A stretch of DNA of 64,000 nucleotides, taken from NCBI RefSeq assembly GCF_024223415.1, contig NZ_CP100500.1; one strand, written 5' to 3'. Positions 1,233-46,377 of the stretch are shown here, in pieces; positions within the stretch are counted from its first letter, which is position 1, and each line of letters begins with the position of its first letter. Made by a program: the position numbers and the translations under genes. Under the pieces are notes generated by a model that worked only from the letters and a program-made list of their open reading frames with translations, was not told where the DNA came from and searched no databases. This DNA comes from Escherichia coli (GTDB taxonomy: Bacteria > Pseudomonadota > Gammaproteobacteria > Enterobacterales > Enterobacteriaceae).

Positions 1233-1296
1233 AAGAAAACGCCTGTACTAAAACCGACCCGTGGTACAGGCGAAGAATACGGGTCTACATCGGAAG
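1233..1296 (-). ncRNA. rydC: RydC small regulatory RNA
   Basis: Reverse complement of 1233-1296 reads CTTCCGATGTAGACCCGTATTCTTCGCCTGTACCACGGGTCGGTTTTAGTACAGGCGTTTTCTT, matching the 64-nt RydC sequence from memory; lies in the cybB-ydcA intergenic region as in K-12. Confidence 0.8.
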
Positions 1297-35187: not shown

Positions 35188-36006
35188 AAGGATAAATGGC
35201 GTTCTCTGTATTTATTCGCAATTATCTGTAGGACAAATATGGAGAGCTTGATGAGTCAGAGCTAAAACAGCAATTGATTAATAAACATGTTGATTTATTC
35301 AAGAAAATGGATGTATTTTAAATATTGATTCTTAATATAACCTAATCAATAGATTATCACGTGAGAGCTGCACATTATTGGAGGGGCAGGGGAAAACACC
35401 ATTTTGGGAACAATGCATCAGGTACTCTTACCACTGAAGCAAGATCATCCGGGCACCAGGTGGTGGTGCAGTGCTTTGGAAATGGTCCCCTCGGGGGAGT
35501 TGTCATTATTTTCTATGCTATTTGCTTATGATATTCATCAGGTGAATTTAATAAATTCCTAATTTGAAATATCCACTATTAAGCCAGTGTTTAACGACGT
35601 TAAGATGGCAATGTGCAGATCATGTTATCAGGGTGGGGCGGTAGCGTATATTCCTTATACAAATCATCATTCATTTCAATGATTGTTATTAAATTATTTA
35701 TTGTTGTGAATAAAAAGACATTATGAATATTGGTTTAACTTTGCATATCAGGTTTTTTATTACTCGCTGTAATGTACGAGCCTGTCGTGAATAACGTCCA
35801 GAACCCATCCGTTGCGTTTGTGATTATTTTGTTGACTAAACAGACGCCCGTTTCTCTGAAGTAAAATCCCAGACTAAATCATCACATAACCATGACATTT
35901 TCTGATATTCCCCGGTAACGCCAGTTGTCGACTCACTTATTTCATCCGCCCGACATGTTGTACATGCAATATGTGCGGATTATTATTCATTTTCACGGAG
36001 GTTGCT

Positions 36007-38115
36007 ATGTCAACCGGATTACGTTTCACGCTGGAAGTGGACGGCCTGCCACCGGACGCGTTTGCGGTGGTCTCCTTTCATCTGAACCAGTCACTCTCTT
36101 CACTTTTTTCCCTCGACCTTTCTCTGGTCAGTCAGCAGTTTCTTTCCCTTGAATTTGCGCAGGTGCTGGACAAAATGGCCTACCTGACGGTATGGCAGGG
36201 CGATGACGTACAGCGCCGGGTGAAAGGTGTGGTGACCTGGTTTGAACTGGGGGAGAACGACAAAAACCAGATGCTGTACAGCATGAAGGTGTGCCCGCCG
36301 CTGTGGCGCACAGGGCTGCGCCAGAACTTCCGTATCTTCCAGAATGAGGACATCGAAAGCATCCTCGCTACGATATTGCAGGAAAACGGGGTGACCGAGT
36401 GGAGTCCGCTGTTCAGCGAGCCGCATCCTTCCCGTGAGTTTTGTGTCCAGTACGGCGAAACCGATTACGATTTCCTGTGCCGGATGGCGGCGGAGGAAGG
36501 CATCTTCTTTTATGAGGAGCACGCGCAAAAAAGTACCGACCAAAGCCTGGTCCTGTGCGATACCGTGCGTTATCTGCCGGAGTCCTTTGAGATCCCCTGG
36601 AATCCGAACACCCGTACCGAGGTAAGCACCCTCTGCATCAGCCAGTTTCGCTACAGCGCACAAATCCGCCCTTCTTCCGTGGTGACCAAAGACTACACCT
36701 TTAAACGCCCCGGCTGGGCCGGACGTTTTGACCAGGAAGGCCAGCACCAGGATTACCAGCGCACACAGTATGAAGTGTATGACTATCCCGGACGTTTCAA
36801 GGGCGCCCACGGGCAGAACTTTGCCCGCTGGCAGATGGACGGCTGGCGAAACAACGCAGAAGTGGCGCGCGGAACAAGCCGTTCGCCGGAGATATGGCCG
36901 GGACGGCGAATTGTGCTGACGGGGCATCCGCAGGCGAACCTGAACCGGGAATGGCAGGTGGTGGCAAGTGAACTGCACGGTGAGCAGCCGCAGGCGGTGC
37001 CGGGACGCAGTGGTTCAGGTACCTCGCTGAATAACCACTTTGCGGTAATCCCGGCAGACCGGACATGGCGGCCACAGCCGTTGCTGAAACCGCTGGTGGA
37101 CGGCCCGCAGAGCGCCGTCGTGACGGGACCGGCAGGCGAGGAAATCTTCTGTGATGAACATGGCCGCGTGCGGGTGAAATTTAACTGGGACCGCTATAAC
37201 CCGTCAAACCAGGACAGTTCATGCTGGATCCGTGTGGCACAGGCGTGGGCAGGCACCGGATTCGGTAACCTTGCGATACCGCGCGTGGGTCAGGAGGTGA
37301 TTGTGGACTTCCTCAACGGCGATCCGGACCAGCCGATCATTATGGGGCGCACCTACCACCAGGAAAACCGCACACCCGGCAGCCTGCCGGGAACAAAGAC
37401 GCAGATGACCATTCGTTCGAAAACCTATAAGGGCAGCGGGTTTAATGAACTGAAGTTTGACGATGCGACAGGGAAAGAACAGGTCTACATCCACGCGCAG
37501 AAGAACATGAACACCGAGGTGCTGAATAACCGCACCACGGATGTGATAAACAACCATGCTGAGACCATTGGCAACAATCAGATGATTGCGGTTACCAACA
37601 ATCAGATACAGACGGTGGGCGTTAACCAGATAGAGACGGTGGGCAGTAACCAGATCATTAACGTGGGTTCTGTTCAGGTGGAAACGATTGGACTTGTTCG
37701 TGCGCTGACCGTGGGCGTGGCGTACCAGACGACGGTAGGTGGCATTATGAACACTTCGGTGGCTCTGATGCAGTCCTCGCAGATCGGTTTGCATAAATCT
37801 TTGAGGGTCGGGCTGGGTTATGACGTCAAAGTCGGAAATAACGTTACCTTCACCGTTGGTAAAACGAAAAAGGATGATACCGGGCAGACCGCGATTTACT
37901 CCGCCGGTGAGCATCTGGAGCTCTGCTGTGGTAAGGCAAAGCTGGTGCTGACAAAGGACGGTCAAATTTTTCTCAACGGCACAAAAATTCATTTGCAGGG
38001 TAAGGAGCAGGTTAATGGTGACTCACTGTTGATTAACTGGAACTGTGCAGCCTCGAAATCCCCACCGAAGACCCCTGATGAAAAGCAGGATACGCCGGAT
38101 ATGAGAGAGTACTGA
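36007..38115 (+). CDS. vgrG: type VI secretion spike protein VgrG
   Basis: ATG 36007 after GGAGG; 702 aa; gp27-like N-terminus (MSTGLRFTLEVDGLPPDAFAVVSFHLNQSLSSLFSLDLSLVS) and gp5-like beta-helical repeats (VINNHAETIGNNQMIAVTNNQIQTVGVNQIETVGSNQIINVGSVQVETIG). Confidence 0.9.
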   Translation: MSTGLRFTLEVDGLPPDAFAVVSFHLNQSLSSLFSLDLSLVSQQFLSLEFAQVLDKMAYLTVWQGDDVQRRVKGVVTWFELGENDKNQMLYSMKVCPPLWRTGLRQNFRIFQNEDIESILATILQENGVTEWSPLFSEPHPSREFCVQYGETDYDFLCRMAAEEGIFFYEEHAQKSTDQSLVLCDTVRYLPESFEIPWNPNTRTEVSTLCISQFRYSAQIRPSSVVTKDYTFKRPGWAGRFDQEGQHQDYQRTQYEVYDYPGRFKGAHGQNFARWQMDGWRNNAEVARGTSRSPEIWPGRRIVLTGHPQANLNREWQVVASELHGEQPQAVPGRSGSGTSLNNHFAVIPADRTWRPQPLLKPLVDGPQSAVVTGPAGEEIFCDEHGRVRVKFNWDRYNPSNQDSSCWIRVAQAWAGTGFGNLAIPRVGQEVIVDFLNGDPDQPIIMGRTYHQENRTPGSLPGTKTQMTIRSKTYKGSGFNELKFDDATGKEQVYIHAQKNMNTEVLNNRTTDVINNHAETIGNNQMIAVTNNQIQTVGVNQIETVGSNQIINVGSVQVETIGLVRALTVGVAYQTTVGGIMNTSVALMQSSQIGLHKSLRVGLGYDVKVGNNVTFTVGKTKKDDTGQTAIYSAGEHLELCCGKAKLVLTKDGQIFLNGTKIHLQGKEQVNGDSLLINWNCAASKSPPKTPDEKQDTPDMREY

Positions 38116-38181: not shown

Positions 38182-41100
38182 ATGAGCGGAAAACCAGCGG
38201 CGCGTCAGGGAGATATGACTCAGTATGGCGGTCCCATTGTCCAGGGTTCGGCAGGTGTAAGAATTGGCGCGCCCACCGGCGTGGCGTGCTCGGTGTGTCC
38301 GGGCGGGATGACCTCGGGCAACCCGGTAAATCCGCTGCTGGGGGCGAAGGTGCTGCCCGGCGAGACGGACCTTGCGCTGCCCGGCCCGCTGCCGTTCATT
38401 CTCTCCCGCACCTACAGCAGCTACCGGACGAAGACGCCTGCGCCGGTGGGGATTTTTGGCCCCGGCTGGAAAGCGCCTTCTGATATCCGCTTACAGCTAC
38501 ATGATGACGGACTGATACTCAACGACAACGGCGGGCGGAGCATTCACTTTGAGCCGCTGCTGCCGGGGGAGGCGGTGTACAGCCGCAGCGAGTCAATGTG
38601 GCTGGTGCGCGGTGGTAAGGCAGCGCAGCCGGACGGCCACACGCTGGCGCGGCTGTGGGGGGCGCTGCCGCCGGATATCCGGTTAAGCCCGCATCTTTAC
38701 CTGGCGACCAACAGCGCACAGGGGCCGTGGTGGATACTGGGGTGGTCAGAGCGGGTGCCGGGTGCTGAGGACGTACTGCCAGCGCCGCTGCCGCCGTACC
38801 GGGTGCTTACCGGGCTGGCAGACCGTTTCGGGCGGACGCTGACGTACCGGCGTGAGGCCGCAGGCGACCTGGCCGGGGAAATCACCGGCGTGACGGACGG
38901 TGCCGGGCGTGAGTTCCGTCTGGTACTGACCACACAGGCACAGCGGGCGGAAGAGGCCCGCACCTCTTCGCTATCTTCTTCTGACAGTTCCCGCCCTCTC
39001 TCAGCCTCAGCGTTCCCCGACACACTGCCCGGTACCGAATACGGCCCCGACAGGGGTATCCGTCTTTCAGCGGTGTGGCTGATGCACGACCCGGCATACC
39101 CGGAGAATCTGCCCGGTGCGCCACTGGCGCGGTACACGTATACGGAAGCCGGTGAACTGCTGGCGGTATATGACCGCAGCAATACGCAGGTGCGCGCTTT
39201 CACGTATGACGCGCAGCACCCGGGCCGGATGGTGGCGCACCGTTACGCGGGAAGGCCGGAGATGCGCTACCGCTACGACGATACCGGGCGGGTGGTGGAG
39301 CAGCTGAACCCGGCAGGCCTGAGTTACCGCTACCAGTATGAGCAGGACCGCATCACCGTCACGGATAGCCTGAACCGGCGTGAGGTGCTGCATACAGAAG
39401 GCGGGGCCGGGCTGAAGCGGGTGGTGAAAAAAGAACTGGCGGACGGCAGCGTCACGCACAGCGGGTATGACGCGGCAGGAAGGCTCACGGCGCAGACGGA
39501 CGCGGCGGGACGGCGGACAGAGTACGGTCTGAATGTGGTGTCCGGCGATATCACGGACATCACCACACCGGACGGGCGGGAGACGAAATTTTACTATAAC
39601 GACGGGAACCAGCTGACGGCGGTGGTGTCCCCGGACGGGCTGGAGAGCCGCCGGGCATATGATGAACCGGGCAGGCTGGTATCGGAGACATCGCGCAGCG
39701 GGGAGACAGTACGCTACCGCTACGATGATGCGTACAGTGAGTTACCGGCGACGACAACAGATGCGACGGGCAGCACCCGGCAGATGACCTGGAGCCGCTA
39801 CGGTCAGTTGCTGGCGTTCACCGACTGCTCGGGCTACCAGACCCGCTATGAATACGACCGCTTCGGCCAGATGACGGCGGTCCACCGCGAGGAAGGCATC
39901 AGCCTTTACCGCCGCTATGACAACCGTGGCCGGTTAATCTCGGTGAAAGACGCACAGGGCCATGAAACGCGGTATGAGTACAACGCCGCAGGCGACCTGA
40001 CTGCCGTCATTACCCCGGACGGCAACCGGAGCGAGACACAGTACGATGCGTGGGGAAAGGCGGTCAGCACCACGCAGGGCGGGCTGACGCGCAGTATGGA
40101 GTACGATGCTGCCGGACGTGTCATCAGCCTGACCAACGAGAACGGCAGCCGGAGTGAGTTTACCTACGATGCGCTGGACCGCCTGGTACAGCAGGGCGGC
40201 TTTGACGGGCGGACGCAGCGTTACCGTTATGACCTGACCGGAAAACTCACGCAGAGTGAAGATGAGGGGCTTGTCATCCTCTGGTACTACGATGAATCGG
40301 ACCGTATCACTCACCGCACGGTGAACGGCGAACCGGCAGAGCAGTGGCAGTATGATGGCCACGGCTGGCTGAGAGAAATCAGCCACCTGAGCGAAGGCCA
40401 CCGTGTTGCCGTCCACTATGGCTATGACGATAAAGGCCGCCTGACCGGCGAACGCCAGACGGTGGAGAACCCGGAGACGGGGGAACTGCTGTGGCAGCAT
40501 GAGACGAAACACGCATACAACGAGCAGGGGCTGGCAAACCGCGTCACGCCGGACAGCCTGCCGCCGGTGGAGTGGCTGACGTATGGCAGCGGTTACCTGG
40601 CGGGAATGAAGCTGGGCGGGACGCCGCTGGTCGAGTATACGCGGGACAGGCTGCACCGGGAGACGGTGCGCAGCTTCGGCAATAATGCATATGAACTGAC
40701 CAGCACTTACACCCCCGCAGGCCAGTTACAGAGCCAGCACCTGAACAGCCTGGTGTATGACCGTGACTACGGGTGGAATGACAACGGCGACCTGGTGCGC
40801 ATCAGCGGTCCGCGACAGACGCGGGAATACGGCTACAGCGCCACGGGCAGGCTGGAGAGTGTGCGCACCCTCGCACCGGACCTGGACATCCGCATCCCGT
40901 ATGCCACGGACCCGGCGGGCAACCGGCTGCCGGACCCGGAGCTGCACCCGGACAGTACACTCACAGTGTGGCCGGATAACCGAATCACCGAAGACGCGCA
41001 CTACCTGTACCGTTACGATGAATACGGCAGGCTGACGGAGAAGACGGACCGCATCCCGACGGGTGTGATACGGACGGACGACGAGCGGACCCACCACTAC

Positions 41101-42387
41101 CACTACGACAGCCAGCACCGCCTGGTGTTCTACACGCGGATACAGCATGAGGAGCCACTGGTCGAGAGCCGCTACCTCTACGACCCGCTGGGACGGCGAA
41201 TGGCAAAACGGGTCTGGCGGCGGGAGCGTGACCTGACGGGGTGGATGTCGCTGTCGCGTAAACCGGAGGAGACATGGTACGGGTGGGACGGCGACAGGCT
41301 GACGACGGTGCAGACTGACACCACACGTATCCAGACGGTCTACCAGCCGGGGAGCTTCACGCCGCTCATCCGTATCGAGACAGAGAACGGCGAACGGGAG
41401 AAAATGCAGCGCCGCAGCCTGGCGGAGAAGCTGCAGCAGGAAGGAAGTGAGGACGGTCACGGTGTGGTGTTCCCGGCTGAGCTGGTGAGGATGCTGGACA
41501 GGCTGGAGGAAGAAATCCGGGCAAACTGCGTGAGCAGTGAAAGCCGCCAGTGGCTTGCGCAGTGCGGGCTGACGGTGGAGCGGCTGGCGGCACAGATAGA
41601 GCCGGTTTATTTGCCTGAGCGAAAAATACATCTTTATCACTGTGACCACCGGGGCCTGCCGCTGGCGCTTATCAGTGAAGACGGCAATACGGCGTGGCGC
41701 GGGGAGTATGATGAATGGGGCAACCAGCTTAATGAAGAGAACCCGTATTACCTGCACCAGCCATACCGTCTGCCGGGGCAGCAGCATGATGAGGAATCAG
41801 GGCTGTACTATAACCGGAACCGGTACTATGACCCGCTACAGGGGAGGTATATTACACAAGACCCCATTGGGCTGGAGGGGGGATGGAACCTGTACCAATA
41901 TCCGCTGAATCCAGTGCAACACGTTGATCCATTAGGGCTTAGTACTATGATAATAGGTAACGGCCCCGTTCCTGATAATCCTTTTGGGCATGCTGCGGCG
42001 GCAAATCGATATGGATTAATGAGTTCGGGAACTGGGGATGAGATGGGAGCCTCTGTCTCTGATTATTTTAAAAAGATGCAACCCCGCAGAGATACCTGGA
42101 TTTGGATAATAGATACAACAGATGAAGAAGAACAATGTATGATGAATAAGGCAATAGACCTTAATAAAAAACTAAAAACTATTAACCTCGGGCCTCTTCC
42201 TGTTTTAAATAATTGTTTTAGCCGAACGAACATGATTTTTGAGGCGTGCGGGTTTAACAACCCCTCTATGAATACAAATGCGCCTATAAGCCTACAAGTG
42301 CTCGGTGAGCTTTATGGATATCAAAGATATATTATGCCTAAAGGTCCTTTCACTGGATTCCCATTTGAATTTCAAGAGGTAAAGTAA
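38182..42387 (+). CDS. rhsE: PAAR-domain Rhs polymorphic toxin (T6SS effector), 1401 aa
   Basis: N-terminal [31 protein letters not shown] (PAAR motif); many YD repeats ([30 protein letters not shown]...); Rhs core terminating at PxxxxDPLGL (ends 41940); gene symbol assigned by synteny only. Confidence 0.9.
41941..42387 (+). other. Rhs C-terminal variable toxin domain (about 148 aa), family not recognised
   Basis: Begins immediately after DPLGL; base composition switches from GC-rich core to AT-rich; sequence [25 protein letters not shown]...[19 protein letters not shown]... has no motif I can assign. Confidence 0.75.
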
Positions 42388-42786
42388 ATGGAAATGCTTG
42401 GGAAGATATTAGTGATAATTATTTCCATGATAATTATATCTTGTGATTATTATAATGCTGGCATGGACTATCAAGATAATATAGCCCTCGAGCAAGTCGT
42501 AACATGGGATTCTGATAATATATTCACACCTAATATCTTTGAACATAATGGAAGATGTTTTATGAAGAAAAATGAAACATGGATGTTATTAAATGGAGAT
42601 GCAACACCAAACATTAGAACAATGAGCAATAAGAAAATAGAATGCCTGGAGAAGAGTGAAGTAGAATGGGCTAGTAGGGTTTGCGACAGTATCACAGACA
42701 AGGAAAGGGAAAATCTGAAGGCATTAATATGTAGCAAACCAGCTAAATCAGTTAATACAGGCAAAAGACCAGCGTTAGGATATTGA
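42388..42786 (+). CDS. probable Rhs immunity protein (132 aa, lipoprotein-like)
   Basis: ATG directly abuts rhs stop (TAA-ATG); AT-rich; N-terminal hydrophobic stretch ending in lipobox-like IISC. Confidence 0.7.
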   Translation: MEMLGKILVIIISMIIISCDYYNAGMDYQDNIALEQVVTWDSDNIFTPNIFEHNGRCFMKKNETWMLLNGDATPNIRTMSNKKIECLEKSEVEWASRVCDSITDKERENLKALICSKPAKSVNTGKRPALGY

Positions 42787-43229
42787 AACCGGCACTGCAC
42801 TCTATCACTATTACAATATTCTGAGTGACTAGAGCAACTGCTCCGCCATCCGGGCTAGCAGTATGACGACGAATCCGAACTGCACTACAACTGGCACCGG
42901 TACTACAATCCGGGACAGGGACCAGGGAAAGATCACGGTGTGCCGTAGGCACAAAGATGCAAAACGGGACGTTTTGCATGTAATAAGCATAAGCTTGTGA
43001 AGAGATGGTGGCAGGCCCACCGGGATCTGCTGTCGGAAGTCGGTCCCAAACAACCCCGGCTGCTGTGGTAAAGAGCCAAGGTAGTGAGCGCAGGGGGAAC
43101 GATCAGACGAGATCTGATCCTGTGTGAGATACAGTGAGATGAGTAAACCCGAACCTGTGTTGAAACGTCGTTAGTCCTAAGTGACATCAAAACCGGAGGT
43201 TTCGTGATACCGCCTGGATTAATTTACGG

Positions 43230-44725
43230 GTGAATTCCGAATGCTGCGTAAATGGTGTCCGGCGTATAGCAGGCATGACGCTGTATCAGGCTCTTTGCAG
43301 GAACTACGGGAACCAGTCGTCGCAATGTCAAGAGAGAAATACAAATAACCGAAATTATGAGTATGAGAGTATCGATGTGCGAAACCGGGGCAGAGCTGTT
43401 CGTAGTAGTGAGGAAGCGTTTGTAATGAATGTGGAGCGAAGGGGCAACGTCGGGCAGTCTGCATCACAGCCCAACTGTAAACAGGAGGAGGCTGCGGGTG
43501 AACAGACAAAACCGTTTCAGGTCAGTAAATTGCATGTGGTGGAAGCGTACCGTCGGGTAAAGGCGAATGCCGGAGCTGCCGGAGTGGATAACCAGACGCT
43601 GAAAGATTTTGAGCGGGATCTGAAAGGAAATCTGTACAAAATCTGGAACAGGTTATCGTCGGGAAGCTGGATGCCGCCGCCAGTGCGTGCGGTGGAAATT
43701 CCGAAGAAGGATGGCAGTAAAAGGCTTTTAGGAATACCGACAGTAAGCGATCGAATAGCGCAGATGACGGTGCTGGTAACGTTTGAACCATTAGTGGAGC
43801 GTTATTTCCTGAATGATTCATACGGATACCGGCATGGAAAATCAGCGCTGGATGCAATAGCAGTTACCAGAAAACGTTGCTGGCAATACGACTGGTGTCT
43901 TGAGTTTGATATTAAAGGGTTATTCGATAATATCCCCCACGATTTATTACTCAGGGCAGTGGATAAACATTGCGCGGATAAATGGGTAAGACTGTATATT
44001 CGCAGGTGGCTGACAGCGCCGGTGCAGATGCCGGATGGAACACTGAAGGAAAGAAATAAAGGTACGCCACAGGGTGGAGTCATCAGTCCGGTACTGGCGA
44101 ATTTATTTCTGCACTATGTGTTTGATAAATGGCTGTCGTTACATTATCCGGAAATTCCCTGGTGTCGTTATGCAGATGATGGATTAATTCATTGTGGCAG
44201 TAAACAACAGGCAGAGGAATTACTGAATAAACTGGCAAAACGTTTTCAGGAATGTGGACTGGAATTACATCCGGAGAAAACGAAAATAGTTTACTGCAAA
44301 GACAGCTAACGACAGGCGAACCACGAAACAGTGCAGTTTGATTTTCTGGGTTATACGTTCAGGGCGAGAAGAGCACGTAATCAGCGAAGTGGAAATCTCT
44401 TTACGAGTTTCAGTCCGGCGGTGAGTAACAGTGCGCAGAAAGGCATGATCGAAAAACTCAGGAAACTGCGGCTCAGACGCAGGGTGGAGATGAGTCTCGA
44501 AGATATTGCGAAAAGGCTGAATCCGATGATATCGGGGTGGCTGAATTATTACGCGAAATACCACAAAGATATATTAATCTGACGCTGATTGCGTGGGCGA
44601 GAAAGAAATATAAAACCCTGCGGTATAGAAAGACGAAGGCGTGTCAGCTAATGGAAAGGCTGTCAAAAGAGAAGCCGGAGTTGTTTGCCCACTGGAATGC
44701 AGGACCGGAAAGCGCGTTTGCCTGA
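43230..44725 (+). pseudogene. group II intron-encoded reverse transcriptase/maturase, split over three frames
   Basis: 43230-44309 has RT motifs (RLLGIPTVSDRIAQMTVL, PQGGVISPVLANLFLHYV, CRYADDGLIHC); maturase continues in 44331-44582 (FDFLGYTFRARRARNQRSG...GWLNYYAKYH) and 44537-44725 (IAWARKKYKTL...LFAHW), so there are at least two frame disruptions. Confidence 0.75.
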
Positions 44726-44728
44726 CGG

Positions 44729-44762
44729 GAGCCGTATGAAGCGAGAGTTTCACGTACGGTTC
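44729..44762 (+). ncRNA. group II intron ribozyme domain V
   Basis: GAGCCGTATGAAGCGAGAGTTTCACGTACGGTTC fits the domain V consensus (GAGCCGUAUG...ACGUACGGUUC) with catalytic AGC triad. Confidence 0.8.
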
Positions 44763-44945
44763 TGCGAGAGGCTGTCGGGGAGGTTCCGGTGGCCTACTCA
44801 CTTAACGCTGCTTTTTTGTACTAAATAATTCGCATTTTATGTTTAAAAATTGAGATATTCCCCATTACCTAAAGCTGTTTTTTATTGCTTATACATGATC
44901 AAATACTCCTTACATAATTAAGGAGAACAAAATGGAATTAAAAAA

Positions 44946-46067
44946 TTGATGGAACATATTTCTGTTATCCCCGATTACAGACAAGCCTGGAAAGTGGAAC
45001 ATAAATTATCGGATATTCTACTGTTGACTATTTGTGCCGTTATTTCTGGTGCAGAAGGTTGGGAAGATATAGAGGATTTTGGGGAAACACATCTCGATTT
45101 TTTGAAGCAATATGGTGATTTTGAAAATGGTATTCCTGTTCACGATACCATTGCCAGAGTTGTATCCTGTATCAGTCCTGCAAAATTTCACGAGTGCTTT
45201 ATTAACTGGATGCGTGACTGCCATTCTTCAGATGATAAAGACGTCATTGCAATTGATGGAATAACGCTCCGGCACTCTTATGATAAGAGTCGTCGCAGGG
45301 GAGCGATTCATGTCATTAGTGCGTTCTCAACAATGCACAGTCTGGTCCTCGGACAGATCAGGACGGATGAGAAATCTAATGAGATTACAGCTATTCCTGA
45401 ACTTCTTAACATGATGGATATTAAAGGAAAAATCATCACAACTGATGCGATGGGTTGCCAGAAAGATATTGCAGAAAAGATACAAAAACAGGGAGGGGAT
45501 TATTTATTCGCTGTAAAGGGAAATCAGGGGCGACTAAATAAAGCCTTTGAGGAAAAATTCCCGCTGAAAGAATTAAATAATCCAGAGCATGACAGTTACG
45601 CAATCAGTGAAAAGAGTCACGGCAGAGAAGAAATCCGTCTTCATATTGTTTACGATGTCCCTGATGAACTTATTGATTTCACGTTTGAATGGAAAGGGCT
45701 GAAGAAATTATGCGTGGCAGTCTCCTTTCGGTCCATAATAGCAGAACAAAAGAAAGAGCCAAAAATGACGGTCAGATATTATATCAGTTCTGCTGATTTA
45801 ACCGCAGAGAAGTTCGCCACAGCAATCCGAAACCACTGGCACGTGGAGAATAAGCTGCACTGGCGTCTGGACGTGGTAATGAATGAAGACGACTGCAAAA
45901 TAAGAAGAGGAAATGCAGCAGAATTATTTTCAGGGATACGGCACATTGCTATTAATATTTTGACGAATGATAAGGTATTCAAGGCAGGGTTAAGACGTAA
46001 GATGCGAAAAGCAGCCATGGACAGAAACTATCTGGCGTCAGTCCTTGCGGGGAGCGGGCTTTCGTAA
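44946..46067 (+). CDS. ydcC: H-repeat-associated ISAs1-family transposase
   Basis: 373-aa ORF ([45 protein letters not shown]...) typical of H-rpt/ISAs1 transposases found in Rhs elements; start codon (TTG 44946 or ATG 44949) uncertain. Confidence 0.85.
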
Positions 46068-46377
46068 TCTTGCCCTGGTTCGTTGAGTTTTTCTGCATTG
46101 CCGGTAATTTTTGCATCTTCTTTGTCCGTGGCTTGTTTCAGCGTCTATAATGGGCGTTAATAAATTGGCAAGTCGGGAACTTGATGTTTTCTTAATGGTA
46201 TGTAGGCAGAAGAATATGTTCTGCAAGTTGACGATTTGTTGGTGCTTTATTTAAAAGGGTGTAGTGCAAATATCTACAATTTCAAGTAGGCATTATTGTC
46301 GTAAAAACGCATCACCGGACATACGACATTCACAATGTGTGTTAATTTTACTGACATCTTTCAAAAGGAGCACAATC

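What the first reader, a model, noticed from the sequence alone, without database searches (positions are those of the whole stretch)
42800..44800. Group II intron inserted directly downstream of the Rhs immunity gene, with a decayed reverse transcriptase but intact domain V
The RT ORF (43230-44309) carries clear RT blocks including YADD, but the maturase region is spread over two further frames (44331-44582, 44537-44725), indicating at least two frameshifts. Domain V (44729-44762) still fits the consensus closely. The element sits between the Rhs immunity gene and the ISAs1/H-repeat transposase, so the Rhs element has been a landing pad for successive mobile elements. I could not locate a GUGYG 5' end.
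Basis: seen in the sequence. Interest (0 to 1): 0.6.

Follow-up and report, generated by a model that had tools for sequence, protein, structure and literature searches.

The report
Dead group II intron in ISEc1
This is a known E. coli retroelement, the class D group II intron E.c.I9. It sits in its usual target, the left tip of the Rhs-associated insertion sequence ISEc1/H-rpt, with an almost intact ribozyme and a reverse-transcriptase/maturase gene killed by one stop codon and one 22-bp deletion. It is an ordinary, already annotated decaying mobile element.

Summary
The feature is real. It is a complete 1,865-bp group II intron at window 42938-44802. The ends were fixed by comparison with uninterrupted ISEc1 copies (CAGGGAAAGATCACG^TAACGCTGC).

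It belongs to the E.c.I9 lineage, bacterial class D / IIB3, the class of RmInt1. It lies in the known E.c.I9 target at the known RhsE locus, 15 nt inside the left end of the H-rpt/ISEc1 element. So it is nested in the IS, not inserted next to the Rhs immunity gene.

The protein gene (43425-44725) has one in-frame nonsense codon (GAA>TAA, 44307-44309) and one 22-bp deletion (after 44566). That is one frameshift, not two. Twenty-one independent complete genomes carry this lesion-bearing segment (19 identical, 2 at 99.7%), so the lesions are not sequencing errors.

The ribozyme aligns end to end with nine other class D introns. GUGUG, EBS1, EBS2, the gamma pair, domain V and domain VI are all in place. 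There are three private broken pairs and a U-U mismatch at EBS3-IBS3.

The intron is most likely immobile and poorly spliced or unspliced. RefSeq already annotates it as an ltrA pseudogene, and the family is described in Leclercq & Cordaux 2012. Interest is low.

The parts
42859..42921 (+). Stub of an orphan Rhs core C-terminal fragment (QYDDESELHYNWHRYYNPGQG), cut off by the IS. This is context, not part of the intron.
   Evidence: Translation. In L003 the same sequence continues into a 576-bp orphan Rhs fragment plus a second immunity gene.
42923..42937 (+). Left end of H-rpt/ISEc1 (inverted repeat CAGGGAAAGATCAC plus 1 nt), which is the 5' exon of the intron. Contains IBS2 (AGGG, 42924-42927) and IBS1 (AUCACG, 42932-42937).
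   Evidence: Comparison with uninterrupted ISEc1 copies L005 and L006. IBS/EBS pairing tests.
42938..44802 (+). Complete group II intron, 1,865 nt, E.c.I9 lineage, bacterial class D / IIB3.
   Evidence: Empty-site comparison. 95.7-96.1% nucleotide identity to ORF-intact E.c.I9 copies: 95.7% to ATCC 8739 over the ORF region, 96.1% to strain 2014C-3061 over 43000-44800. Alignment with nine class D introns including RmInt1.
42938..42942 (+). 5' splice-site consensus GUGUG.
   Evidence: Aligned with the GUGUG/GUGCG start of all nine other class D introns in alignment A3.
43007..43122 (+). Domain I segment matching Rfam RF01999 (group-II-D1D4-2).
   Evidence: 93.9 bits against a gathering score of 36. 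The same model hits RmInt1 and seven of the eight other plasmid-borne relatives scanned, plus the ATCC 8739 and E. coli 042 copies.
43175..43178 (+). EBS2 (UCCU), pairing with IBS2 AGGG. Tentative: only 4 bp, one of them G-U.
   Evidence: Same alignment columns as the exon-complementary loops of the other nine introns. Cognate pairing averages 5.0 bp against 3.4 bp for non-cognate combinations.
43203..43208 (+). EBS1 (CGUGAU) in the terminal loop of the Id3 hairpin, complementary over 6 bp to IBS1 AUCACG.
   Evidence: The loop covaries with the 5' exon in 8 of 10 introns. Cognate pairing averages 6.2 bp against 3.3 bp for non-cognate combinations.
43267..43267 (+). EBS3 (U), the homologue of RmInt1 G329. 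It faces IBS3 U44803, giving a U-U mismatch.
   Evidence: Mapped through alignment A3 and the 3' exons in A4. 8 of 10 introns have a Watson-Crick pair here. RmInt1 positions are from PMC4238363.
43392..43392 (+). Gamma (A), pairing with gamma' U44802, the last intron nucleotide.
   Evidence: All 10 introns pair here, and the pair covaries: A-U in the E.c.I9 lineage, G-C in the others.
43425..44725 (+). IEP (ltrA) pseudogene in domain IV. RT domain with YADD at 44169-44180. TAA nonsense at 44307-44309 (codon 295). 22-bp deletion between 44566 and 44567 in the maturase (X) domain. No endonuclease domain.
   Evidence: Nucleotide comparison with the intact 440-aa ORF. PGAP note 'frameshifted; internal stop'. 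TIGR04416 at 354 bits for codons 1-294. Pfam RVT_1 92-312 and GIIM 339-410 on the intact homologue.
44729..44762 (+). Domain V, 34 nt, with the AGC triad at 44730-44732. Identical to ORF-intact copies.
   Evidence: Rfam RF00029 alignment. No differences within it relative to L003.
44765..44800 (+). Domain VI with the bulged branch-point A at 44796, seven nt from the 3' splice site.
   Evidence: Rfam RF00029 alignment. CCUACUCAC(U/C) is conserved, with minor variants, across class D introns.
44803..46077 (+). Remainder of H-rpt/ISEc1, which is the 3' exon. Transposase ORF 44949-46067. Right inverted repeat 46064-46077 (12/14 match to the left repeat). The IS is 1,291 bp without the intron.

Best explanation
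Window 42938-44802 is a full-length but protein-dead copy of the E. coli group II intron E.c.I9, bacterial class D / IIB3, the class of Sinorhizobium RmInt1.

How it arrived (inferred from the family). The intron RNA, bound to its RT/maturase, recognised the left tip of an ISEc1/H-rpt element by base pairing: EBS1 CGUGAU with AUCACG, and EBS2 UCCU with AGGG. It reverse-spliced into the DNA after nucleotide 15 of the IS and was copied into DNA. The IEP has no endonuclease domain, so priming presumably used the replication fork, as shown for RmInt1.

What happened since (shown). In the lineage that includes this window, the IEP gene acquired a GAA>TAA nonsense codon at codon 295 and a 22-bp deletion in the maturase domain. 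The ribozyme picked up three single-pair disruptions.

Consequence (inferred). There is no maturase or RT of its own, and the identical strains checked hold no second related copy. The intron can therefore no longer move, and it probably splices poorly or not at all in vivo. It is now inherited vertically as a 1.9-kb insert between the left inverted repeat and the transposase gene of the IS, downstream of the RhsE toxin-immunity module.
For: - Exact ends come from the empty site CAGGGAAAGATCACG^TAACGCTGC in uninterrupted ISEc1 copies.
- Rfam hits above gathering score for the domain I motif and for domains V-VI.
- The 5' 490 nt align column for column with nine class D introns including RmInt1. 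RNAalifold gives 125 pairs, 85 of them with compensatory changes.
- EBS1, EBS2 and gamma-gamma' covary with the exons and the intron end across the ten introns.
- The intact homologue's IEP is 55% identical end to end to the RmInt1 IEP, including the C-terminal tail. It has RVT_1 and GIIM but no HNH domain.
- The lesions are defined against intact 440-aa ORFs.
- 21 complete genomes from different hosts and laboratories carry the lesion-bearing 341-nt segment in one piece, 19 at 100% and 2 at 99.7%.
- A sister copy (OkiPb01695) has the same EBS1 and the same exons but lacks the stop, the deletion and the three broken pairs. These changes are therefore derived.
- Identical strains have only one related place per genome, so no trans IEP of this family is available.
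- Literature: E.c.I9 is class D and targets the Rhs IS. It is full-length in ATCC 8739, and 193-bp orthologous fragments occur in other strains (PMC3522654).
- Window GC skew is +0.038, which places the intron sense strand on the lagging-strand template. This fits the RmInt1-type bias but is weak evidence (PMC8914252 abstract).
Against: - No transcription, splicing or mobility data exist for this copy. 'Unspliced and immobile' is inferred from the loss of the maturase.
- The ribozyme is nearly intact, so residual protein-independent or trans-assisted splicing cannot be excluded.
- EBS3-IBS3 is U-U here. Either insertion tolerated a mismatch or the 3' exon or EBS3 changed afterwards.
- The EBS2 pairing is only 4 bp.
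- The naming as E.c.I9 rests on about 96% identity to the ATCC 8739 copy and on one paper. The Zimmerly database itself could not be queried.
Confidence: 0.93

Rival explanations
1. The intron has lost its protein but is still a working ribozyme. It splices from read-through Rhs-operon or IS transcripts, either on its own or with a maturase supplied in trans. It therefore still modulates ISEc1 expression or Rhs 3' transcript structure.
For: GUGUG, EBS1, EBS2, gamma-gamma', domain V and domain VI are all present. Only 3 of about 118 helix pairs are privately broken. RmInt1, of the same class, self-splices in vitro, though inefficiently (PMC4238363).
Against: In vivo splicing of bacterial group II introns normally needs the cognate maturase. 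No second related ORF exists in identical genomes. EBS3-IBS3 is U-U, and two of the tested non-pairing EBS3-IBS3 combinations impaired the second splicing step in RmInt1. The C-U mismatch at 43194/43215 lies in the stem that presents EBS1.
Confidence: 0.15
2. The frame breaks are assembly or sequencing errors and the intron is intact and mobile.
For: A single nonsense codon and one indel are the kinds of change that errors can produce.
Against: 19 complete genomes are 100% identical across both lesions and 2 more are 99.7% identical. They come from human, chicken, mink, calf and pig isolates and from different centres. The indel is 22 bp, not a homopolymer slip. PGAP flags the same lesions.
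Confidence: 0.01
3. One reading: the intron inserted into the Rhs element itself, in the spacer between the immunity gene and the IS, as one of several independent arrivals.
For: Its position lies between the two genes.
Against: The 15 nt upstream and the sequence downstream of the intron rejoin into the uninterrupted ISEc1 left end. The same intron family is found in ISEc1 in other contexts, and the literature names the IS as the homing site. EBS1 pairs with the IS terminus, not with Rhs sequence.
Confidence: 0.03
4. It is not an intron but a free-standing reverse transcriptase remnant, such as a retron, DRT or Abi-type defence RT, next to chance RNA motifs.
For: Weak sub-threshold NCBIfam similarities to Drt3a, Drt2 and retron RTs.
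Against: Those hits are far below their cut-offs, whereas TIGR04416 group_II_RT_mat scores 425 bits against a cut-off of 300. The complete ribozyme shows covariation. The ends are exact against an empty site.
Confidence: 0.01

Closest known systems
E.c.I9 (E. coli ATCC 8739, NC_010468 2411.6-2413.5 kb; Leclercq & Cordaux 2012, Zimmerly database name)
   Same: Same chromosomal locus, between the RhsE module and pptA-yddH-nhoA. Same host element and insertion point at the left tip of the H-rpt/ISEc1. 95.7% nucleotide identity over the ORF region; the near-identical copy in strain 2014C-3061 shows 51 substitutions plus the 22-bp gap over the whole intron. Same domain V and VI, same gamma-gamma' A-U, same EBS2 and EBS3.
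   Different: ATCC 8739 has an intact 440-aa IEP. The window has a stop at codon 295 and a 22-bp deletion. The EBS1 loop differs at 4 of 5 adjacent positions: window UUUCGUGAUA against CAUGAUGAUA. The IS subtype downstream also differs: 3' exon UAACGCUGC against AGAAGUACA. The window has three extra broken helix pairs.
E.c.I2 / IntB-type intron (E. coli UMN026; a copy in E. coli 042 at NC_017626 271263-273153)
   Same: Same class (D), same host IS family (ISEc1/H-rpt), about 70% nucleotide identity, same overall ribozyme, En-less IEP.
   Different: It inserts inside the transposase coding sequence (CUGGACG^UGGUAAUG) rather than at the IS terminus. Its EBS1 is CGUCCAG, its gamma-gamma' is G-C, and it is 1,891 nt long with an intact IEP.
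RmInt1 of Sinorhizobium meliloti (class D / IIB3 prototype, in ISRm2011-2)
   Same: The IEP is 55% identical end to end, including the class-specific C-terminal tail, with no D/En domain. The ribozyme is alignable throughout. EBS1, EBS2, EBS3 and gamma fall in the same columns. The 3' end is not the usual AY. The lifestyle is the same: homing into an insertion sequence (PMC4238363).
   Different: Different host, target and exon-binding sequences. RmInt1 is active and experimentally characterised, whereas this copy is a pseudogenised relic.

Membership tests
Group II intron (ribozyme plus IEP retroelement) | Conserved 5' end GUGYG and a defined 3' end that together excise precisely from a known uninterrupted sequence | tested here: met
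   GUGUG at 42938. Removing 42938-44802 restores the ISEc1 left end seen in L005 and L006.
Group II intron (ribozyme plus IEP retroelement) | Domain V (34-nt helix with AGC triad and 2-nt bulge) and domain VI with a bulged A | tested here: met
   RF00029 at 62.8 bits against a gathering score of 40, at 44727-44802. Branch A at 44796.
Group II intron (ribozyme plus IEP retroelement) | Domains I-III fold supported by covariation | tested here: met
   Ten-intron alignment, 125 pairs, 85 with compensatory changes. The window departs at three private pairs only.
Group II intron (ribozyme plus IEP retroelement) | EBS1-IBS1 (and EBS2-IBS2) pairing with the 5' exon | tested here: met
   EBS1 CGUGAU with AUCACG, 6 bp, and the loop covaries with the exon in 8 of 10 introns. 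EBS2 UCCU with AGGG, 4 bp, weaker.
Group II intron (ribozyme plus IEP retroelement) | RT plus maturase (X) ORF in domain IV | tested here: met
   TIGR04416 at 354 bits for codons 1-294 and 54.7 bits for the next segment. RVT_1 and GIIM on the intact homologue.
Functional (mobile, splicing-competent) group II intron | Uninterrupted IEP reading frame | tested here: not met
   TAA at 44307-44309 and a 22-bp deletion after 44566. The lesion-bearing segment is shared by 21 genomes.
Functional (mobile, splicing-competent) group II intron | Demonstrated splicing or retrohoming | not testable with these tools
   Needs RT-PCR, in vitro splicing or mobility assays.
Bacterial class D / IIB3 | IEP without D/En domain, clustering with class D IEPs, and the class-specific C-terminal extension | tested here: met
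   The intact homologue is 55-56% identical to the RmInt1 IEP through the last residues (...LFxHWKA...). There is no HNH domain. Class D is assigned in PMC3522654 Table S2. No formal phylogeny was run.
Bacterial class D / IIB3 | IIB-like RNA with EBS3 in the Id internal loop and gamma-gamma' pairing | tested here: inconclusive
   Gamma-gamma' is met (A43392-U44802). The EBS3 position is conserved by homology, but it forms U-U with IBS3 in this copy.
E.c.I9 (named intron) | More than 95% nucleotide identity to the reference copy (database naming rule quoted in PMC3552965) and the same homing site | tested here: met
   95.7% identity to ATCC 8739 over the ORF region by BLAST, and 96.1% to the near-identical 2014C-3061 copy over 43000-44800. 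Same IS terminus and locus.

The most novel reading that the evidence does not exclude
The window copy may represent an undescribed E.c.I9 sub-lineage. Its EBS1 loop was rewritten at 4 of 5 adjacent bases so that it matches the canonical ISEc1 terminus (GAUCACG^U) instead of the variant terminus (GAUCAUCG^A). EBS3 was left unadapted. This would be a natural snapshot of a class D intron retargeting between IS subfamilies. The ORF-dead but ribozyme-intact copy might also persist because it still splices, or because it uncouples the IS left end from its transposase.
Probability: 0.12. Interest if true: 0.3.

Novelty: already known. Interest (0 to 1): 0.12.

Why it matters
It matters little beyond correct annotation. 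The case is a clean example of the published extinction dynamics of group II introns in Enterobacteria. An intron homes into an IS next to an Rhs toxin module. It is intact in a few strains and protein-dead in a clade of 21 genomes. In about a quarter of complete E. coli genomes only a 193-nt stump remains.

The practical value is an exact map of the ends, exon-binding sites and lesions. The map stops the RT fragment being mistaken for a defence RT, and stops the intron being mistaken for part of the Rhs cargo. The EBS1 difference between sub-lineages could be used to test target-switching rules in class D introns.

Tried and rejected
1. Single-sequence MFE folding of 42938-43430. The z-score was only -1.99 and the fold was not group II-like. 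It was replaced by a comparative fold of ten introns.

2. Position 43079 as EBS3, because it is A in the window and U in E.c.I9, complementary to the two 3' exons. Rejected for two reasons. The E.c.I2-like intron does not fit. Homology to RmInt1 G329 places EBS3 at 43267. Position 43079 is instead a broken G-U pair.

3. Class C assignment, suggested by the best PDB hits (GsI-IIC RT and other IIC RTs). Rejected because no class D structure is in the PDB, the IEP is 55% identical to RmInt1, and the RNA has an EBS2 and a full-size domain V.

4. Reading Dai & Zimmerly 2002 (PMC1370338 and PMC101233). Neither is held, so the original IntB/E.c.I2 description could only be cited second-hand through PMC3522654.

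5. A search for a perfect right-end inverted repeat of the IS with GGGAAAGATCA found none. The right repeat is imperfect (12/14) and was read directly from the sequence.

6. The first full-text search for Rhs, H-rpt and group II intron gave nothing relevant.
Full report
**Context.** The window is the E. coli RhsE region. The gene order is VgrG (35971-38115), a 1,401-aa Rhs core protein (38182-42387), its immunity gene (42388-42786), the feature in question, an ISAs1-family (H-rpt/ISEc1) transposase (44949-46067), then pptA, yddH and nhoA. The queried stretches are 100% identical to E. coli O78 strain 3 (42750-44900) and, over the intron, to several other complete genomes.

Two details of the observation are wrong. 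ORF 44331-44582 is in the same frame as 43230-44309, so the first break is not a frameshift. A GUGYG 5' end is also present.

**Ends of the intron.** Uninterrupted ISEc1/H-rpt copies elsewhere in E. coli read ...CAGGGAAAGATCACG^TAACGCTGCTTTTTTGTACTAAAT... (loci L005 and L006). In the window this sequence is split. CAGGGAAAGATCACG ends at 42937, followed by GTGTGCCGTAGG.... On the other side...GGCCTACTCACT ends at 44802, followed by TAACGCTGC. The intron is therefore 42938-44802, 1,865 nt, starting GUGUG.

The 15 nt upstream are the left terminus of the IS. The matching imperfect right repeat (12/14) is at 46064-46077. The IS is 1,291 bp once the intron is removed. The intron is nested in the IS, one nucleotide beyond its 14-bp terminal repeat. 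It is not inserted into Rhs sequence. The stretch between the immunity gene and the IS holds the stub of an orphan Rhs C-terminal fragment (42859-42921...ESELHYNWHRYYNPGQG).

**The protein gene.** Other E. coli strains carry the same intron at the same locus with an intact 440-aa ltrA. These include ATCC 8739, 2014C-3061 and 30COLEC. Base-by-base comparison gives 51 substitutions and one 22-bp gap. Two changes are disabling:
- G>T at 44307 turns codon 295 from GAA into TAA.
- The 22-bp deletion after 44566 shifts the frame within the maturase domain.

The true start is ATG 43425. RefSeq's PGAP annotation of the identical genome says 'ltrA, frameshifted; internal stop'.

The intact protein matches TIGR04416 group_II_RT_mat at 425 bits. 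It has Pfam RVT_1 (92-312) and GIIM (339-410) and no endonuclease domain.

The lesions are not sequencing errors. A 341-nt query spanning both is 100% identical in 19 complete genomes and 99.7% identical in 2 more. These isolates come from humans, chickens, mink, a calf and a pig.

Substitutions relative to the intact ORF are 21 synonymous and 16 non-synonymous (including the stop) against ATCC 8739 (14 against L003). Most of the divergence therefore accumulated while the gene was still under selection, and inactivation is comparatively recent.

A sister copy in strain OkiPb01695 has the same exon-binding loop and the same exons. It lacks the stop, the deletion and the window's broken helix pairs. 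It has its own one-base insertion. The window's lesions are thus derived within one sub-lineage.

**Identity and class.** Leclercq & Cordaux 2012 (PMC3522654) state that E.c.I2 and E.c.I9 target the Rhs IS (ISEc1-5) at two different positions. They list E.c.I9 as class D, 'in a Rhs region', full-length in ATCC 8739, with orthologous 193-bp fragments in SE11, O157:H7 and other strains.

The window intron is 95.7% identical to the ATCC 8739 copy over the ORF region. The fragment shared by 1,327 of 5,426 complete genomes corresponds to intron nucleotides 1-193, window 42938-43130. The roughly 70%-identical relative in E. coli 042 sits inside the transposase coding sequence and is 1,891 nt long. 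That matches the 1,891-nt coordinate span listed for E.c.I2 in UMN026.

The intact E.c.I9 IEP is 55% identical over its whole length to the 419-aa IEP of RmInt1, the class D prototype. The match includes the C-terminal tail. RF01999 also hits RmInt1, seven of the eight other plasmid-borne relatives fetched, and the E. coli 042 and ATCC 8739 copies.

**The ribozyme.** The window's 5' 490 nt align column by column with nine other class D introns, starting at the shared GUGUG/GUGCG. These come from E. coli, Methylobacter, Marinobacter, Sinorhizobium, Bradyrhizobium, Methylomagnum, Alkalihalophilus and Clostridium. RNAalifold predicts 125 pairs, and 85 of them keep pairing through changes on both sides in at least one sequence.

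Exon recognition and tertiary contacts:
- **EBS1.** The terminal loop at 43203-43208 (CGUGAU) is complementary to the last six exon bases, AUCACG. Across the ten introns, cognate loop-exon pairs form 6.2 bp on average against 3.3 bp for non-cognate combinations.
- **EBS2.** A second loop (UCCU, 43175-43178) pairs with AGGG at -14 to -11. Cognate pairing averages 5.0 bp against 3.4 bp.
- **Gamma and EBS3.** I used the published RmInt1 positions, EBS3 = G329 and gamma = G452 pairing with the last nucleotide (PMC4238363). Gamma maps to A43392 and pairs with U44802. This contact is Watson-Crick in all ten introns and covaries, which independently fixes the 3' splice site and explains the non-AY end.
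- **EBS3 mismatch.** EBS3 maps to U43267 and faces U44803. Eight of the ten introns pair at this contact.

Relative to intact E.c.I9, the window has three private broken pairs: 43065-43079 (G-A), 43194-43215 (C-U, in the stem that carries EBS1) and 43315-43386 (A-C). Domains V and VI are unchanged.

**Mechanism.**
- Shown: the anatomy, the ends, the lesions, the pairing potential and the population distribution.
- Inferred from the family: the intron arrived by retrohoming into the IS terminus, guided by EBS1 and EBS2. The IEP lacks an endonuclease, so insertion most likely used a replication fork, as in RmInt1. The positive GC skew of the window (+0.038) puts the intron's sense strand on the lagging-strand template, which fits that model but is weak evidence.
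- Inferred consequence: the maturase is gone and identical genomes hold no second related ORF. The copy should be immobile and poorly spliced or unspliced.

Residual ribozyme activity cannot be excluded.

**Novelty.** The intron family, its class, its IS target, its presence at this Rhs locus and its decay pattern are all published. This copy is already annotated as a pseudogene. What may be undescribed is modest. The window sub-lineage has an EBS1 loop that differs from the ATCC 8739 copy at four of five adjacent bases and matches the canonical ISEc1 terminus. The ORF-intact ATCC 8739 copy, in contrast, pairs over only 2 bp with its own 5' exon.

**Verdict.** This is an ordinary, correctly recognised feature with corrected details. 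Interest is low.

Noticed in passing
L001 3001-3322 (E. coli NT1W25); same arrangement in SE11, O157:H7 and others; corresponds to window 42923-43130: 1,327 of 5,426 complete E. coli genomes keep part of the intron's domain I, in most cases only intron nucleotides 1-193. In L001 the stump is followed directly by a second H-rpt left end (TAGGGAAAGATCATCAAAAGTTCAC...). This suggests that another H-rpt inserted into domain I and recombination between the two IS copies then deleted the rest of the intron.
   Followed up: partly
L008 2694-2740 and 2990-3010 (E. coli ATCC 8739), L003 likewise: The ORF-intact reference E.c.I9 has EBS1 GAUGAU, which pairs over only 2 bp with its present 5' exon GAUCACG. 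It would pair over 7 bp with the GAUCAUCG exon seen in the fragment-bearing strains. Its 5' exon seems to have lost one T, or been exchanged, after insertion. The 'intact' reference copy may itself splice badly.
   Followed up: partly
L021 1658-3545 (E. coli OkiPb01695): A sister copy of the window sub-lineage with the same EBS1 and exons. It lacks the stop, the 22-bp deletion and the three broken pairs, but is independently inactivated by a 1-nt insertion at intron position 782. This is a second, independent death of the same intron lineage.
   Followed up: yes
window 44932-44951: The ISAs1/H-rpt transposase gene has lost one base (the C of codon 3; GAACTT became GAATT). The canonical start ATG 44932 therefore runs into TGA at 44947-44949. 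The annotated ORF restarts at ATG 44949 and lacks the first six codons.
   Followed up: partly
window 42859-42921: A stub of an orphan Rhs core C-terminal fragment (QYDDESELHYNWHRYYNPGQG) directly abuts the IS left end. In ATCC 8739 and 2014C-3061 the same sequence continues into a full orphan toxin fragment plus a second immunity gene. The IS, or a deletion next to it, removed that module here.
   Followed up: partly
window 46079-46288: About 210 bp between the IS right end and pptA are absent from strain NT1W25 (L001). In OkiPb01695 the corresponding gap holds a diguanylate cyclase gene fragment. The origin was not examined.
   Followed up: no
L013 (Methylobacter plasmid), L016 (Alkalihalophilus pseudofirmus pBpOF4-01), L017 (Clostridium pasteurianum pCLOPA01): The closest relative outside the genus Escherichia (63% aa) also follows an ISAs1-family transposase gene. 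The two Firmicute class D introns sit inside another group II RT gene. Their 5' exons end in ...GCGGACGAT and ...GCGGATGAT, which read as YADD-motif coding sequence, so these are twintron-like insertions.
   Followed up: no
window 1233-1296, 1856-2007, 63509-63567: Other Rfam gathering-level hits in the window: RydC sRNA (- strand), sok antitoxin RNA of a hok/sok-type locus (- strand), and a SECIS_3 selenocysteine insertion element. From its map position the SECIS is presumably in fdnG.
   Followed up: no
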